The notes beneath the pieces were generated by a model, which saw only the letters and a program-made list of their open reading frames with translations, ran no database searches and was not told the origin of the DNA. A program made the translations under genes and the position numbers. Source: Chloroflexota bacterium (GTDB lineage Bacteria; Chloroflexota; Dehalococcoidia; UBA2247; RBG-13-53-26). From it: a stretch of DNA of 33,489 bases. The DNA lies in contig QMOF01000001.1 of NCBI GenBank assembly GCA_003650185.1, positions 1-33,489 of the forward strand. The letters run 5' to 3'. This document shows, one piece after another, positions 1-10,509 of this stretch (its first letter is position 1; every line of letters begins with the position of its first letter).

Positions 1-509
1 ACCTTGTCAAACGCATCTTCGCCGGGCACCCGCCACGGCGAGTGTCCAGAGACCTCTGTGTCAAGAGGCAGACCCTCGACGCTCGAATGTAATCTCACCT
101 CTGCGGGCCCGGCGCGTCCTGTCTTGGCCCGGTTGAACCAGAGGAGGTCTGCAGGCTGCCGAGCCACCAGCGGTGTTCTCTCGAACTTCCTTTGCACATG
201 GCCGACCATATTGCGGACCGGGGCCAGCAGGCGATCGGCCCACCCCACCCCACCAGCAGCCGGATACTGCGGTCTCCACACGGGCAGTCCTCGGAGCTGC
301 GGCTGGCGGGAGATAATCCCAATGCGCTGGGCAAGCTCCACGGCGAACCGGCTGCCGCGCCACACGACACGGGAGGCAAAGGCGCGGCCCACGTCCCTCC
401 AGCCCTGGACCTCTTGCCCTGTACCTGAGGAAGGCGTTTGGCTGCTGCGCTCGGGCTCCGGCCCCTCGGCCGGGCCTCCTTCCTGTCTGCCCTTCTTTCT
501 CCGAGCCAT
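1..509 (-). CDS. hypothetical protein, N-terminal part only (gene runs off the window); next gene of the eCIS operon after the second tube gene
   Basis: Absent from the ORF track because it has no stop inside the window. A reverse-strand ATG at 507-509 lies 6 nt after the TAG of the tube gene. It opens a frame with no stop for 169 codons (MARRKKGRQEGGPAEG...DVGRAFASRVVWRGSRFAVELAQRIGII...). Third codon positions are mostly G/C, as in neighbouring genes. I recognise no family. Confidence 0.5.
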   Translation of the reverse strand, partial: MARRKKGRQEGGPAEGPEPERSSQTPSSGTGQEVQGWRDVGRAFASRVVWRGSRFAVELAQRIGIISRQPQLRGLPVWRPQYPAAGGVGWADRLLAPVRNMVGHVQRKFERTPLVARQPADLLWFNRAKTGRAGPAEVRLHSSVEGLPLDTEVSGHSPWRVPGEDAFDK

Positions 510-515
510 ATTGGC

Positions 516-965
516 CTACTGTTTTTCCAGAGTCATGCCTTCGTGGGTCAGCTCCAGCGTTTCAATGGAAACGCCGTTGTCGTCGACCTTGAAAGCCGGG
601 CCTACCCATTTCACCGGGTAGGCCCGGACCAGGTTCCATCTCCACGCCTCCGAACCGTCGTAGTAGTGGAGCACTATGGATACGTTCTTGCGCTTCTGCT
701 CGCCTTCGATGATGGACTGGAACCAGTCCCACAAATCGCTGCCTGCAGCATATCCCCGCTTCAACGTCACGTTAGAGTACTTGACCCTCCCCGGCAGCTT
801 GTGGATCTGGTCGTTCAGACCGCCTTCTTCATAAGAGAAGACCTCTCTCTCCACATCAAGGCCCGAGCACTCAGTGAACTGAGCGTGCGACATACCTTCT
901 ATTTCGACCGTGAACCGATAGTTCTGCAGGTAGTCGACAACCTCACCCGGATTAGCCATCGTCAT
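516..965 (-). CDS. contractile tail tube protein, T4 gp19 / Afp5-like (second tube paralogue)
   Basis: 149 aa. The pattern YRFTVEIEG..F.ECSGL..E.EV..Y.EGG......LPGRVKYSNVTLKRG......W.W is typical of gp19-type tube proteins. It is also shared with the 1704-2147 paralogue. An alternative ATG at 959 has a better-spaced GGGAG. Confidence 0.85.
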   Translation of the reverse strand: MTMANPGEVVDYLQNYRFTVEIEGMSHAQFTECSGLDVEREVFSYEEGGLNDQIHKLPGRVKYSNVTLKRGYAAGSDLWDWFQSIIEGEQKRKNVSIVLHYYDGSEAWRWNLVRAYPVKWVGPAFKVDDNGVSIETLELTHEGMTLEKQ

Positions 966-1158
966 ACTCCCATGCTAAACCCTGCAACGGAACTGCGCTC
1001 CGGCACCCCATGGCGCGTTCGCACACCAGCCATCGAACCCTGCAGGCCGCCTCCCGCGGCGCACGTCCGCCCACGACACGGCCTCTCACCCTATGCACGG
1101 CTGACCGCAAGACCATACCAGCAACCCCCGAGGCTGACGGCCCGAGCGCCCAAGCCAC

Positions 1159-1362
1159 CTACCCCTCGCTAAGCCTGCGGTTTATGCCACCGATCTCCTC
1201 GACCCACCGCTGTCTTTCCTGGTGCTCCATCTCCAGGATTTCCCGGCGCGGCCAGTGGAAATAGTAGGCGATGTAGGCTACCTCCTCGTACAGGCGGTCG
1301 AGGGGGTAGCCCTTTATGCCCCCCCCAGGCGGCCCATATCTACCTCGAAATTGTGCCCGCAC
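1159..1362 (-). CDS. -1 frame extension of the tail assembly chaperone (small conserved-looking domain GYPLDRLYEEVAYIAYYFHW...), probably made only as a frameshift fusion
   Basis: The 67-codon frame overlaps the 3' end of ORF 1314-1682 by 49 nt. Its only upstream start is a GTG at 1362 with no Shine-Dalgarno sequence. The protein-like sequence begins right after the G8 run. Confidence 0.6.
   Translation of the reverse strand: MRAQFRGRYGPPGGGIKGYPLDRLYEEVAYIAYYFHWPRREILEMEHQERQRWVEEIGGINRRLSEG
1276..1326 (-). other. putative -1 programmed ribosomal frameshift cassette (slippery heptamer + spacer + hairpin)
   Basis: The minus-strand RNA reads CTG GGG GGG GCA TAA in the zero frame (plus-strand C8 at 1319-1326), giving heptamer G GGG GGG at 1320-1326. 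After an 8-nt spacer comes the hairpin GGCTACC-C-CCTCG [ACCGCCTGTA] CGAGG-A-GGTAGCC at 1276-1311 (12 bp). Confidence 0.55.
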
Positions 1363-1682
1363 TCAGGACAGGTAGTGGGAATCATGCTTGTCCCGTTCTC
1401 ATTGATCCGGCGATAGAACTCCTGAAGGTAGGCCAGGTCGGCCGAGAACAGGTTCTCGATCACCCCGGTATTGACATCCTTCAGGTTGCCAAGCTTGGTG
1501 ATCACTCTGGAGAGCAGGACGACCACCAGGTAAGCCTGGTTGGCCTTCACCCGCATGTCTTTCAGCGGGAATATCTCGTCGGCCGCCGTGGCCAGGCGCA
1601 TGACGCCGTGCTTGTGGAGGTTGCCCTCCTTGTCCACGTAGCCCCGTGGCAAGGTGAACTCGAATTCGGTCTGCAGAGTCAT
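1314..1682 (-). CDS. phage-type tail assembly chaperone-like protein (zero-frame product)
   Basis: 122 aa, with GAGGTGA 5 nt upstream of the ATG. It lies directly after the sheath and tube genes, where P2 E/E' and lambda G/GT chaperones sit. The sequence MTLQTEFEFTLPRGYVDKEGNLHKHGVMRLATAADEI resembles proteins annotated 'phage tail assembly protein' in eCIS loci (from memory). Confidence 0.7.
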   Translation of the reverse strand: MTLQTEFEFTLPRGYVDKEGNLHKHGVMRLATAADEIFPLKDMRVKANQAYLVVVLLSRVITKLGNLKDVNTGVIENLFSADLAYLQEFYRRINENGTSMIPTTCPECGHNFEVDMGRLGGA

Positions 1683-9002: not shown

Positions 9003-9216
9003 GGTCTTGCACAGTCACGCCCAGCGCAGCGTCCTCGTCTGTTGAAGCGGAGTAGCTCGGCGGTGGGCTCAAGTGGCCCATGATGAACTCCATCATTTTC
9101 TCCGGCCTCAGGAAGTGCACCGCCTCCTGGGTACCAACATGCTGGACATATCCCCGGCTCATCCTGTGCTCTTCGTCCACCCAGATCTTGACCACAAATG
9201 AACTATAGTGACCCAT
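8977..9216 (-). CDS. small hypothetical protein, first ORF of the eCIS operon
   Basis: 79 aa (MGHYSSFVVKIWVDEEHRMSRGYVQHVGTQEAVHFLRPEKMMEFIMGHL...). It overlaps the ATPase start by 14-26 nt, suggesting translational coupling. It lies directly downstream of the phased repeats and -10 candidate. Only a weak SD (GGGTGG) is present. Confidence 0.5.
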   Translation of the reverse strand: MGHYSSFVVKIWVDEEHRMSRGYVQHVGTQEAVHFLRPEKMMEFIMGHLSPPPSYSASTDEDAALGVTVQDHEARDERV

Positions 9217-9285
9217 TCAACCACCCGTGAGCCCCCACATTAGACACACTCTAGACCGGGGCCACTGTCAGTGCTCCAATGAGTA

Positions 9286-9340
9286 AGGTTAGTAGGTAAC
9301 GGTGAATATCCGGATAATTGACGGTGAATCGGCGGTGAAT
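9286..9340 (-). promoter_or_regulatory. three phased direct repeats ATTCACCG (11- and 22-bp spacing) plus -10-like TAACCT: candidate SARP-dependent promoter of the eCIS operon
   Basis: Plus-strand CGGTGAAT occurs at 9300-9307, 9322-9329 and 9333-9340. On the minus strand the promoter-proximal repeat is followed by 8 nt and then TAACCT (9286-9291). The site lies 120 nt downstream of the SARP gene stop and ~70 nt upstream of the first ORF. Confidence 0.5.
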
Positions 9341-9459
9341 CAGCCGCTCGGGGGGCAACACGTGGCAGATTGCCCGGATGGGGCCAGCTTCGAAAGGGGA
9401 ACGCAACGCCGCGTGGGGGCATGGGGGCTTTGATAGCGGGGATTGTGAAGGGAGGGTGC

Positions 9460-10509
9460 CTAGATGTGCTCGCCGCTCAACAGCTTCGTGTACAGTCCCA
9501 CCGTGCGGGCATCCGGGGATACCTCCAACTCGGCTTTCATGGTCCTCTCGCACAGGCGGTACCAGTTTATGGCCCGGCTGCGTTGCCCGAGGCGACTGTG
9601 ACAGCACATCAGGCGCTGGTAGGCGTCCTCACGGCACGGGTCCTTGGTCAGTATCTTCTGGCAATACACAATGCAGCCTTCATAGTCATCTTGTTTCATG
9701 GAATAGTCGGCCAGTCGGCCCAATATGGCAAGATAGGTGTCTTTGACAGCCTCGCGCCGCAGCGTGGTCCACTCCTCGTAGAGGTTGTCCTCCATGTAGT
9801 CACCTTTGTAGAGCGACTCAGCCGTCTGATGCTCCTTAATTGCCTCGGCAATCTCTCCCTGCTTCTCCAGGCGCTTTGCGGTCTGCCAATGGTGCTCGAA
9901 CTCGTCAACGTCCAACCACAGATCAACCGCTGGGTTGATCATGTAGTTTCCGTCCTGGCATAAGATCCATGCAAAATCACCGTTCGACCCATGGGCTGCG
10001 CCCAGAGCCTGCCGCAGGGCTCGCGCCGCCGCCTTCAAGTTGTTGTTTGCCAGTGAGGGCTCCCAACCCGGCCACAGGGCCTCCATCAGTATGTCTTTGG
10101 CAACCGGATGGCCACGCTGGCCCACGAGATACTTTAGCAGAGACTTCGCCTTGGTGCTGTGCCACTGGTCAATCTTGATGCAACCGACGCGCACCTGGAA
10201 TCTGCCCAGACAATACACCTCAAGAGTGGGGACAGCAAGAGTTTCGCCAGATGTCATTACGCTGTTACAACCGGAGCGCTGACCGTCAGCAACGATCAAA
10301 CTCCCATTTCGCTCCGCAGCGTTTTTCTCCAGGGCCTCAAGAGCGGTGCGCAGATGCTTACCTGTAGCAGCTTCCCTCTGGCCCAGGTACAAACTGACGT
10401 TGTCTAGTTGCTCGATAGCCCGACGGTAGTCGCGCTGCACCAATCTGAGGATTTCAACAGCGGTCTGGTAGGGGTTAGCCAGCTCGTCGTTTGTGTCCGC
10501 CTTTCGCAC
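9460..10509 (-). CDS. SARP-type transcriptional activator (OmpR-like winged helix + BTAD domain) with ~100-aa N-terminal extension
   Basis: 349 aa. LEVYCLGRFQVRVGC..I..W.S.KAKSLLKYLV....PV.KD.LMEALWP is the wHTH pattern. LWLDVDEFE........G....A......A..LY.GDYMED.LYEEW....RE........L..LA is the BTAD pattern. The C-terminus is TPR-like. Confidence 0.8.
   Translation of the reverse strand: MRKADTNDELANPYQTAVEILRLVQRDYRRAIEQLDNVSLYLGQREAATGKHLRTALEALEKNAAERNGSLIVADGQRSGCNSVMTSGETLAVPTLEVYCLGRFQVRVGCIKIDQWHSTKAKSLLKYLVGQRGHPVAKDILMEALWPGWEPSLANNNLKAAARALRQALGAAHGSNGDFAWILCQDGNYMINPAVDLWLDVDEFEHHWQTAKRLEKQGEIAEAIKEHQTAESLYKGDYMEDNLYEEWTTLRREAVKDTYLAILGRLADYSMKQDDYEGCIVYCQKILTKDPCREDAYQRLMCCHSRLGQRSRAINWYRLCERTMKAELEVSPDARTVGLYTKLLSGEHI

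What the first reader, a model, noticed from the sequence alone, without database searches (positions are those of the whole stretch)
1..10509. Half of an eCIS (Afp/PVC-like contractile injection system) operon with a dedicated SARP regulator and cargo-like genes at its 5' end
Eleven collinear minus-strand genes form a recognisable set: SARP regulator, small ORF, Afp15-like AAA+ ATPase, DUF4157 protein, leader-sharing hypothetical, DUF4255 cap, sheath, tube, chaperone pair, second tube, and a truncated ORF. The absence of capsid, portal, terminase or integrase genes, together with the presence of the AAA+ ATPase, DUF4255 and DUF4157, argues for an eCIS rather than a prophage or T6SS. In the classic Afp/PVC loci the toxins lie at the 3' end. 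Here two candidate cargo genes sit between the ATPase and the cap gene, and a pathway-specific activator is physically attached. The baseplate, spike and tape-measure half is outside the window.
Basis: partly seen in the sequence, partly recalled or inferred. Interest (0 to 1): 0.7.

Follow-up and report, generated by a model that had tools for sequence, protein, structure and literature searches.

The report
Chloroflexi contractile injection system, 5' half
The window holds the front half of a phage-tail-like protein-injection machine in an uncultivated Chloroflexi bacterium, with its own activator gene and two likely cargo genes; it is a real but ordinary new member of a known family whose closest studied relative is the Streptomyces system.

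Summary
Window 1-10509 (minus strand) encodes a SARP/BTAD regulator, a conserved 79-aa protein, a WHD+AAA ATPase, a DUF4157/eCIS_core protein, a 356-aa protein that shares its N-terminal leader, a Pvc16_N cap, a sheath, a gp19 tube, a chaperone pair, a second gp19 tube and the start of a 915-aa gene.

Near-identical contigs supply the missing half: tube initiator, VgrG, PAAR, gp25, baseplate J and P2_I. They show no capsid, terminase or T6SS genes.

The closest characterised relative is the cytoplasmic Streptomyces CIS (class IId), not Afp/PVC, so extracellular action is unproven. Cargo genes upstream of the sheath and a BTAD regulator are already described for this superfamily. This is therefore a new member of a known kind.

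New supporting details:
- An 11-nt-period ATTCACCG repeat lies between the SARP gene and the operon.
- A SARP, small-protein, ATPase module is conserved in 7 of 7 loci examined.
- The leader is modular. Relatives carry it on about 60 different protein clusters.

Seen in passing: the chaperone pair (o122/DUF6760) shows a -1 frame relation in 78 of 78 loci, including Streptomyces. It has a G-rich slippery site and a downstream hairpin. I found no paper that describes this.

The parts
1..509 (-). 5' 170 codons of a 915-aa gene. It sits in the tape-measure position, between tube 2 and the tube initiator. It runs off the window.
   Evidence: An open frame starts at ATG 509. The full 915-aa gene is present on near-identical contigs L002, L003, L004 and L167. 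It has no Pfam, PHROG or NCBIfam hit. The tape-measure role is inferred from position only.
516..965 (-). Second tube-family protein (gp19 fold)
   Evidence: Phage_T4_gp19, 4.5e-44. It is 41% identical to tube 1.
1159..1326 (-). DUF6760 domain, read in the -1 frame relative to o122. It is the proposed frameshift extension of the tail assembly chaperone.
   Evidence: DUF6760, 1.1e-13. The -1 frame relation holds in 78 of 78 loci. In 37 of 76 loci the -1 frame has no start codon upstream of the slip site.
1320..1326 (-). Candidate slippery heptamer G_GGG_GGG inside a G8 run (1319-1326). It lies one codon before the o122 stop (1314-1316).
   Evidence: Read from the sequence. The run is identical in independent JGI and ENA assemblies. 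An in-frame slippery heptamer is present in 76 of 78 loci.
1274..1312 (-). Predicted hairpin a few bases 3' of the slip site (GGCUACC..CCUCG..CGAGG..GGUAGCC)
   Evidence: RNAalifold on 10 Chloroflexi-type and 60 Actinobacteria-type sequences. Paired cells are 93% and 97%, against 29-60% when the partners are slid. The region is coding, so the evidence is suggestive only.
1314..1682 (-). Tail-assembly-chaperone-like protein (o122)
   Evidence: PHROG 508 'tail assembly chaperone', 5.4e-5. It is conserved at 49-76% identity next to DUF6760 in the related loci.
1704..2147 (-). Inner tube protein
   Evidence: Phage_T4_gp19, 1e-38.
2170..3723 (-). Contractile sheath
   Evidence: Phage_sheath_1 and Phage_sheath_1C. 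Full-length match to the Streptomyces CIS sheaths 8bky and 8bl4, E=5e-168. A 100% identical protein is annotated in a Chloroflexi MAG.
3928..4743 (-). Tube/sheath terminator cap: Pvc16_N plus a C-terminal CarboxypepD_reg-like beta-sandwich
   Evidence: The closest solved chain is 9gts_0A, E=6.8e-28, then Afp16 and Pvc16.
4788..5858 (-). Candidate cargo. It has an N-terminal leader (about aa 10-105), a disordered linker and a helical C-terminal domain (aa about 175-345) of unknown function.
   Evidence: Leader match. The leader is found at the N-terminus of about 60 unrelated representative proteins. The C-terminal domain occurs behind DUF4157 in P0229, P0230 and P0231. The AF2 model has pLDDT above 90 for the C-terminal domain. 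No PDB fold match.
5904..6776 (-). Small DUF4157/eCIS_core protein: leader, acidic repeat linker, HExxH domain, basic tail, no effector domain. It is a candidate adaptor or co-cargo.
   Evidence: eCIS_core, 1.2e-32. The HELTH motif is in the sequence. A 16-aa linker repeat varies in copy number between strains.
6792..9002 (-). Afp15/Pvc15-type AAA+ ATPase (WHD N-domain plus CDC48-like AAA)
   Evidence: WHD, 8e-47, and AAA, 1.8e-34. The CDC48/p97 family is the closest solved group.
8977..9216 (-). Conserved 79-aa protein of unknown function, the first gene of the operon
   Evidence: The motif F-V-V-x-I-W...G-x-V-x-H-V...F...F-I recurs in L010 and L015. It also recurs in 27 database proteins of 71-88 aa. 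In 4 of 4 contexts it lies between a BTAD gene and the CIS ATPase.
9300..9340 (-). Candidate SARP box: ATTCACCG three times at 11- and 22-nt spacing, with a degenerate fourth unit ATTATCC between them
   Evidence: These are the only three ATTCACCG matches in the 33.5-kb window; 0.7 are expected. The 11-nt units are conserved in the orthologous spacer of L173.
9460..10509 (-). SARP-family activator: about 90-aa N-extension, OmpR-type winged helix, BTAD
   Evidence: BTAD, 1.3e-24, and Trans_reg_C at 24 bits. AfsR/SARP models align over residues 91-346.

Best explanation
Window 1-10509 is the 5' half of a chromosomal contractile injection system (CIS) of the eCIS superfamily. The host is an uncultivated, Dehalococcoidia-related Chloroflexi bacterium. 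The CIS belongs to the lineage that also holds the Streptomyces class IId CIS.

Shown:
- The gene content and order.
- The missing baseplate, spike and tape-measure half on near-identical contigs.
- The absence of head and T6SS genes.

Inferred:
- The SARP protein binds the 11-nt-period ATTCACCG repeats just downstream of its own gene. It activates a promoter that drives the 79-aa gene, the ATPase, the DUF4157 gene, the 356-aa gene, the cap and probably the structural genes.
- The AAA+ ATPase recognises the shared N-terminal leader (...HPANxxQKxxxxxxLQxxxGNAYVQRLL) on the DUF4157 protein and on the 356-aa protein, and loads them into the tube. Alternatively, the small DUF4157 protein tethers the 356-aa effector to the spike, as Sle2 does for Sle1 in S. 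lividans.
- The chaperone pair is made as a short product (o122) and a -1 frameshift fusion (o122-DUF6760) that help build the tube on the tape measure.

Whether the particle is released or fires inside the cell is open.
For: Identity:
- Marker families are recovered.
- The locus is extended on contigs with identical proteins.
- The sheath matches the Streptomyces CIS structures over its full length.
- Sheath relatives are 68-76% identical in Dehalococcoidia, 56-62% in other Chloroflexi and 51-57% in Actinomycetota.

Regulator:
- BTAD gene, then small protein, then ATPase and CIS genes, in the window species, L010, L015 and L171-L174.
- ATTCACCG occurs three times, only in this spacer. The units are conserved in L173.
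- BTAD is a published eCIS 'shell' domain (PMC8213781).

Cargo:
- The leader matches at E=2e-10.
- About 60 representative proteins of 97-1226 aa carry the leader at their N-terminus. Of the 66 sequences scanned (65 representatives plus the window's own DUF4157 protein), 31 have eCIS_core. Others have Peptidase_C70, DUF922 or C39.
- The C-terminal domain of the 356-aa protein is fused behind DUF4157 in P0229-P0231.
- L007 and L008 have leader-DUF4157-CTD proteins in the same slot.
- Published parallels: the AlgoCIS Cgo1/2 N-terminal loading sequence, Sco4256-8 and Sle1/Sle2.

Frameshift.
Against: - There are no expression, particle or loading data for this organism.
- The 356-aa C-terminal domain has no recognisable toxin fold. 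Many of its short homologues lack the leader.
- The DUF4157 protein has no effector domain.
- No ATTCACCG repeat lies in the 204-nt cap-sheath spacer, so control of the structural genes by the SARP is unproven.
- The SARP is absent from the 4.7 kb upstream of the ATPase in L008, the close relative with upstream sequence. L007, the closest relative, has only about 1.5 kb upstream and cannot show this.
- The tape-measure role of the 915-aa protein rests on position alone.
Confidence: 0.75

Rival explanations
1. It works like the Streptomyces CIS. The particle stays in the cytoplasm or at the membrane and fires inwards or through the cell's own envelope under stress, causing regulated cell death. 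It is not released to attack other cells.
For: - The sheath and cap are closest to the Streptomyces CIS structures.
- No Afp13-like fibre was recognised downstream of P2_I.
- The 3' end carries an Ig+TM protein whose N-terminal module is often tandemly repeated with variable C-termini in relatives.
- By profile search this module is related to ORFs in the Sco4256-8 position of Streptomyces loci.
- Sco4256-8 are published CIS effectors with a shared N-terminus and one TM helix.
Against: - Localisation cannot be read from sequence.
- The 1264-aa DUF4350/BNR/Ig protein at the 3' end could be a receptor-binding protein.
- These Chloroflexi relatives are not known to be filamentous.
Confidence: 0.4
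2. It is a released extracellular CIS of the Afp/PVC type that injects the leader-bearing proteins into other organisms.
For: - It has the full eCIS marker set, including the Afp15-like ATPase, the Pvc16 cap and DUF4157.
- DUF4157 cargo fills the tube of the extracellular AlgoCIS.
- A large Ig/BNR protein at the 3' end could serve as a fibre.
Against: Afp and PVC sheaths match only the C-terminal ~200 residues. No tail-fibre family was detected, and no lysis genes were seen.
Confidence: 0.35
3. The two 'cargo' genes are not cargo. The DUF4157 protein is an assembly or processing metallopeptidase, and the 356-aa protein is an assembly factor or immunity protein.
For: - DUF4157 carries HExxH. 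Its role is unsettled, and it is dispensable for loading in AlgoCIS.
- The 356-aa C-terminal domain has no toxin-like fold.
Against: The leader is attached to many unrelated C-terminal domains, including protease-type effector domains. The same C-terminal domain occurs as the C-terminal module of DUF4157 proteins. That is the known cargo architecture.
Confidence: 0.2
4. It is a degraded prophage or an R-type tailocin remnant.
For: Sheath, tube, TAC frameshift pair, tape measure and baseplate are all of phage-tail ancestry.
Against: - The AAA+ ATPase, the Pvc16 cap and DUF4157 are eCIS-specific.
- No head, terminase, integrase, lysis or repressor genes occur in about 50 kb of locus and flanks.
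- All genes are intact, and the locus is conserved across phyla.
Confidence: 0.03

Closest known systems
Streptomyces coelicolor/venezuelae CIS (CISSc, class IId; PDB 8bky, 8bl4, 9gts)
   Same: - Full-length sheath similarity, E=5e-168, 51-57% identity to Streptomyces sheaths.
- Closest solved cap.
- The same o122/DUF6760 pair with the same -1 arrangement.
- Candidate effectors with shared N-termini encoded upstream of the sheath.
- A cluster-linked regulator.
   Different: - The regulator here is SARP/BTAD with a small partner protein. Streptomyces uses the LuxR-type SCO4263.
- The order here is ATPase-cargo-cap-sheath, against cap-ATPase-...-sheath in Streptomyces.
- Tube 2 precedes the 915-aa gene here and follows the tape-measure gap in Actinobacteria.
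- The cap has an extra CarboxypepD_reg domain.
- The Ig+TM proteins lie at the 3' end here.
AlgoCIS cargo Cgo1/Cgo2 (Algoriphagus machipongonensis)
   Same: A pair of proteins in one locus share a system-specific N-terminal region that acts as the loading signal. DUF4157 follows it.
   Different: Here the modules are split. One protein has leader plus DUF4157 and no C-terminal domain. The other has leader plus C-terminal domain and no DUF4157. The AF2 model predicts a helical leader core (pLDDT 75-86), not a fully disordered one.
S. lividans Sle2 (small DUF4157 protein) and Sle1 (adjacent effector without DUF4157)
   Same: A small DUF4157 protein lies next to a DUF4157-less protein just upstream of the structural genes.
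   Different: Sle1 is a long tape-measure-like coiled coil that binds Sle2. Here the partner is a 356-aa protein that carries the same leader as the DUF4157 protein. No interaction data exist.
Afp (Serratia) and PVC (Photorhabdus)
   Same: Sheath C-domain, gp19 tubes, Afp16/Pvc16 cap and Afp15/Pvc15 ATPase families.
   Different: - There is one sheath gene here, against three in Afp/PVC.
- The ATPase and cap lie at the 5' end, not the 3' end.
- Cargo lies 5' of the sheath.
- A TAC frameshift pair is present here.
- No Afp13-like fibre was recognised.
Phage tail assembly chaperones made by -1 frameshift (lambda G/GT, P2 E/E+E')
   Same: Two overlapping ORFs after the tube gene, a -1 relation, a slippery heptamer near the end of the first ORF, and a PHROG TAC hit.
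   Different: It occurs in a non-phage CIS. The slippery site is G-rich (G_GGG_GAA/GGA/GGG). In this lineage a second tube gene separates the pair from the long tape-measure-position gene.

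Membership tests
eCIS superfamily (phage-tail-like contractile injection systems) | Sheath, gp19-type tube, Pvc16/DUF4255 cap and Afp15-type AAA+ ATPase in one locus | tested here: met
   Pfam hits, all above their cut-offs.
eCIS superfamily (phage-tail-like contractile injection systems) | Baseplate and spike module: tube initiator/LysM, VgrG, PAAR, gp25, Baseplate_J, P2_I | tested here: met
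   Outside the window, on contigs that carry identical sheath and tube proteins.
eCIS superfamily (phage-tail-like contractile injection systems) | No capsid, portal, terminase or integrase | tested here: met
   None in the 33.5-kb window or in about 17 kb of leftward extension. The contig ends 0.5 kb after the last gene.
eCIS superfamily (phage-tail-like contractile injection systems) | Particles released and acting from outside the target cell; tail fibres | not testable with these tools
   No Afp13-like family was seen. A 1264-aa DUF4350/BNR/Ig protein is a possible binder.
Streptomyces-type CIS (class IId) | Sheath groups with Streptomyces sheaths | tested here: inconclusive
   Best solved match is 8bky/8bl4, full length, with 51-57% identity to Streptomyces sheaths. 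No tree against the dbeCIS subclades was built.
Streptomyces-type CIS (class IId) | Sco4256-type effectors (conserved N-terminus, one TM helix, variable C-terminus) | tested here: inconclusive
   An Ig+TM protein lies 3' of DUF4159. A jackhmmer profile reaches ORFs in the Sco4256-8 position of Streptomyces loci. The Sco4256 sequence itself was not compared.
Streptomyces-type CIS (class IId) | Cytoplasmic localisation and CisA membrane adaptor | not tested
   No CisA sequence was at hand. Localisation needs cryo-ET.
SARP regulators | OmpR-type winged-helix DNA-binding domain followed by BTAD | tested here: met
   BTAD, 87.7 bits. Trans_reg_C, 24 bits (cut-off 26.2). AfsR/SARP NCBIfam models align over residues 91-346.
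SARP regulators | Direct repeats at 11-nt (one helical turn) spacing at the target promoter | tested here: met
   ATTCACCG at 9300, 9322 and 9333, plus a degenerate unit. The units are conserved in L173. Binding is not shown, and the -10 assignment is tentative.
DUF4157-type CIS cargo (Cgo1/Cgo2 architecture: NTD, DUF4157, CTD) | All three modules in one protein | tested here: not met
   The DUF4157 protein lacks a C-terminal domain, and the 356-aa protein lacks DUF4157. Relatives P0229-P0231, L007 and L008 have the full architecture.
DUF4157-type CIS cargo (Cgo1/Cgo2 architecture: NTD, DUF4157, CTD) | System-specific N-terminal region shared by the cargo proteins of one locus | tested here: met
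Frameshifted tail assembly chaperone pair (G/GT type) | Second ORF in the -1 frame, slippery heptamer at the end of the first ORF, no independent start | tested here: met
   The -1 relation holds in 78 of 78 loci. A heptamer is present in 76 of 78. In 37 of 76 there is no start codon. The fusion product has not been observed.
Type VI secretion system | TssB/TssC sheath, ClpV, TssJLM membrane complex | tested here: not met
   The sheath is of the Phage_sheath_1 type. No T6SS families occur among the called genes.

The most novel reading that the evidence does not exclude
The o122/DUF6760 pair is expressed by a programmed -1 ribosomal frameshift that has been kept in CIS loci from Chloroflexi to Streptomyces. 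The feature combines a G-rich slippery site, a stop 0-1 codons later and a downstream hairpin. It is absent from the CIS papers I could search. It would mean that the model Streptomyces CIS also makes an unannotated fusion protein needed for tube and tape-measure assembly. In addition, a SARP plus an ~80-aa partner protein may form a lineage-specific switch for Chloroflexi CIS.
Probability: 0.45. Interest if true: 0.55.

Novelty: new member of a known kind. Interest (0 to 1): 0.33.

Why it matters
The finding adds an intact, well-delimited CIS from an uncultivated Dehalococcoidia-related lineage. It brings three testable handles:
- A candidate SARP operator.
- A short, transferable N-terminal loading leader, present in about 60 protein clusters.
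- A split adaptor/effector pair.

These could help to engineer loading in class II CIS and to mine new effectors by leader rather than by toxin domain. The frameshifted chaperone pair, if confirmed, corrects the annotation of a gene in every locus of this lineage, including the Streptomyces models. It does not change the present picture of what CIS are.

Tried and rejected
- A first genome-contig scan with tube 2 alone found nothing. An alignment of sheaths was needed.
- Function of the 356-aa protein. Pfam, PHROGs, NCBIfam and PDB sequence searches gave nothing. The AF2 model is confident for the C-terminal helical domain, but Foldseek against PDB gave no match at E<=0.001.
- The DUF4157 protein and the o122-DUF6760 fusion have no solved relatives.
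- jackhmmer from the 79-aa protein alone found only the same species. A motif search and a three-sequence profile were needed.
- RNAalifold on all 70 slip-site sequences together gave no structure, because the stem register differs between the two groups. The groups were analysed separately.
- The sigma-70 consensus scan was uninformative: 2 sites found, 2.4 expected.
- Rfam found only a tRNA at 17894-17965.
- The weak DUF6760 hit to Phage_P2_GpE (E=0.023) is treated as possibly chance.
- Prophage and T6SS readings were rejected on gene content.
- MarR (11190-11684) as a second regulator was rejected. It is absent from the orthologous loci L171-L174.

Full report
**Observation.**
Pfam recovers the following:
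- two gp19 tube proteins (516-965 and 1704-2147);
- a Phage_sheath_1/1C sheath (2170-3723);
- a Pvc16_N cap with a CarboxypepD_reg C-domain (3928-4743);
- an eCIS_core/DUF4157 protein (5904-6776);
- a WHD+AAA ATPase (6792-9002);
- a BTAD regulator (9460-10509).

The regulator's winged-helix region scores just under the Pfam cut-off, but it aligns to the AfsR/SARP NCBIfam models. The 'chaperone pair' is o122 (1314-1682; PHROG 508 tail assembly chaperone, 5.4e-5) and an ORF at 1159-1362 that hits DUF6760 at 1.1e-13. Gene callers missed that second ORF on the related contigs. The 356-aa protein (4788-5858) and the 79-aa ORF (8977-9216) have no family. The shared leader is real: 51% identity over 43 residues, E=2e-10. 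The rest of the window is housekeeping.

**Source and the missing half.**
The sheath is 100% identical to a protein annotated in a Chloroflexi MAG. Contigs from several JGI and ENA assemblies carry the same proteins and extend the locus leftwards. The added genes, in order, are:
- a 915-aa protein, of which the window holds the first 170 codons;
- CIS_tube with a weak LysM hit;
- VgrG, PAAR and gp25;
- a 668-aa Baseplate_J protein;
- Tail_P2_I;
- a DUF4159 protein;
- a 356-aa protein with Ig-like domains and one TM helix;
- a 1264-aa DUF4350/BNR/Ig protein.

No capsid, portal, terminase, integrase or T6SS genes appear.

**Which kind of CIS.**
The sheath matches the solved Streptomyces CIS sheaths 8bky and 8bl4 over its whole length (E=5e-168). 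It matches Afp, PVC and AlgoCIS sheaths only over the C-terminal ~200 residues. The cap is closest to 9gts. In one-genome-per-species data the sheath relatives are Dehalococcoidia (68-76%), other Chloroflexi, Acidobacteria and Deinococcota (56-62%), then many Actinomycetota including Streptomyces (51-57%).

Gene order across 80 such loci is conserved from the sheath onwards. The Chloroflexi group has ATPase-DUF4157-(variable)-cap-sheath. The Actinobacteria have cap-ATPase...DUF4157...sheath. The Streptomyces system is cytoplasmic and mediates cell death (PMC10066040). 'Afp/PVC-like' and 'extracellular' are therefore not established here.

**Regulator.**
Geller et al. already list BTAD as an eCIS 'shell' domain and model BTAD genes as operon regulators (PMC8213781). 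The link here is specific, for three reasons.

1. SARP-like genes lie just upstream of CIS genes in L010 and L015 (27-29% identity). Each is followed by a small ORF that shares a motif with the window's 79-aa protein. That motif occurs nowhere else in 170 loci.
2. A profile of the three small proteins finds 27 database proteins of 71-88 aa. In all four contexts looked up, the order is BTAD, small protein, an optional second Pvc16_N gene, then the WHD/AAA ATPase. Three of these continue into further CIS genes. In L172 the genes after the ATPase show no other CIS families.
3. The 243-nt spacer between the SARP gene and the small gene holds ATTCACCG three times, at 9333-9340, 9322-9329 and 9300-9307. 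The spacing is 11 and 22 nt, with a degenerate ATTATCC unit between. These are the only matches in the window; 0.7 are expected. The orthologous spacer of L173 keeps the same 11-nt units, while its flanks diverge.

Direct repeats one helical turn apart are the known SARP operator layout (established knowledge of the family). Binding and activation are inferred. No such repeat lies in the cap-sheath spacer.

**Cargo.**
An exhaustive HMMER search with the 356-aa protein gives two separate sets of hits. About 20 representative proteins share its C-terminal domain. About 60 proteins of 97-1226 aa share only its N-terminal ~100 residues, always at their own N-terminus.

- Leader set: 66 sequences were scanned, the 65 representatives plus the window's own DUF4157 protein. 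Of these, 31 carry eCIS_core. Others carry Peptidase_C70, DUF922, C39 or OmpA domains.
- C-terminal set: in P0229, P0230 and P0231 the domain sits behind a DUF4157 domain. In P0227, P0228 and P0232 it follows the leader directly, as in the window.
- Same slot in the closest relatives: L007 has two leader-DUF4157-CTD proteins and L008 has one.

This matches the published cargo architecture. AlgoCIS Cgo1/2 share an N-terminal region that is necessary for loading, while DUF4157 is dispensable. Sco4256-8 share an N-terminus and lie upstream of the sheath. In S. lividans a small DUF4157 protein (Sle2) tethers the adjacent DUF4157-less effector Sle1.

The window's pair looks like a split version: leader-DUF4157 without an effector, and leader-effector without DUF4157. 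The effector domain is a confident all-helical model with no PDB match. Its activity is unknown.

**Seen in passing: a conserved frameshift.**
DUF6760 is in the -1 frame relative to o122 in all 78 loci where both were found, and never in the same frame. The further evidence is:
- An in-frame slippery heptamer is present in 76 of 78 loci: G_GGG_GAA in 57, G_GGG_GGG in 9, G_GGG_GGA in 9 and G_GGA_AAA in 1. In 73 of them it lies 0-1 codons before the o122 stop.
- In 37 of 76 loci the -1 frame has no ATG, GTG or TTG between its upstream stop and the slip site. Homology in the -1 frame begins at the slip site.
- A hairpin is predicted a few bases downstream in both the Chloroflexi-type and the Actinobacteria-type sequences. 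Paired cells are 93% and 97%, against 29-60% for slid partners, with a few compensatory changes. The region is coding and the sequences are related, so this is suggestive only.
- In the window the G8 run is 1319-1326, and it is identical in independent assemblies.
- In Actinobacteria the pair sits directly before the tape-measure gap, the classic G/GT position.

No paper in the held library mentions DUF6760. The five Streptomyces CIS papers I checked do not mention a frameshift. That does not prove it is unknown.

**Downstream accessory genes.**
DUF4159 follows P2_I in 33 loci. The Ig+TM N-terminal module occurs in 71 loci, often in tandem copies with different C-termini. A jackhmmer profile of that module reaches ORFs between the ATPase and the sheath in many Streptomyces loci. 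In S. coelicolor, Sco4256-8 lie in that position. Vladimirov et al. report Sco4256 homologues in Chloroflexi class IId loci. I could not compare with Sco4256 itself.

**Verdict.**
The finding is correct, and the stated checks support its interpretation. It is a new member of a known kind. Its layout, regulator type and cargo position are all documented for this lineage. The frameshift and the SARP/small-protein module are the only parts that might interest a specialist.

Noticed in passing
window 1159-1362 and 1314-1682 (minus); slip site 1320-1326: The uncalled DUF6760 ORF lies in the -1 frame of the chaperone-like o122. A G8 slippery run sits one codon before the o122 stop. The -1 arrangement holds in 78 of 78 related loci, including Streptomyces. 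Of these, 76 have a slippery heptamer and 37 have no possible independent start codon. A hairpin is predicted just downstream. It looks like a programmed frameshift of the phage G/GT type. I found no paper that describes it for CIS.
   Followed up: yes
window 8977-9216 (minus); L010:5873-6238, L015:1490-1798, L171-L174: The 79-aa ORF is a real, conserved small protein with no Pfam family. It always lies between a BTAD/SARP gene and the CIS ATPase (7 of 7 loci examined). Its function is unknown. It may be a partner of the regulator.
   Followed up: yes
window 9300-9340 (minus); L173:5905-5945: There are four 11-nt units with core ATTCACC(G), one of them degenerate (ATTATCC). They are conserved between two species. 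This is a candidate SARP operator.
   Followed up: partly
window ~6380-6430 (DUF4157 linker); L001, L003, L004: Co-occurring strains differ by one copy of a 16-aa acidic repeat (EEEEELVQAKAVQRQE) in the linker between leader and DUF4157, giving 290 or 306 aa. L007 has five such repeats.
   Followed up: partly
L005:~5040-5110 and L003:~12700 (equivalent to window ~966-1300): One assembly (L005) has a 66-nt in-frame deletion that removes the conserved core of DUF6760. Another (L003) lacks 41 nt of the ~190-nt untranslated spacer between DUF6760 and tube 2. These are either strain variants or assembly errors.
   Followed up: no
L167:10001-16166 (left of the window on the same contig family): Downstream of P2_I lie a DUF4159 protein, an Ig-like+TM protein and a 1264-aa DUF4350/BNR/Ig protein. 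DUF4159 and the Ig+TM module are conserved after the baseplate genes in many metagenomic relatives. The Ig+TM gene is often in 2-7 tandem copies with variable C-termini. A profile search links it to ORFs in the Sco4256-8 position of Streptomyces loci.
   Followed up: partly
L012, L014, L017 (between DUF6760 and the tube initiator): Some relatives have a DUF4157 hit in the tape-measure position. This resembles the published Tme tape-measure-related effectors of S. davawensis. The window's 915-aa protein has no DUF4157.
   Followed up: no
window 3724-3927: A 204-nt untranslated spacer separates the cap and sheath genes. It has no SARP-box repeat. It may hold a second promoter or a processing site.
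   Followed up: no
window 17894-17965 (minus): A single tRNA gene (Rfam RF00005, 66.9 bits) lies between the OYE-type oxidoreductase and mnmG. It is unrelated to the CIS.
   Followed up: no
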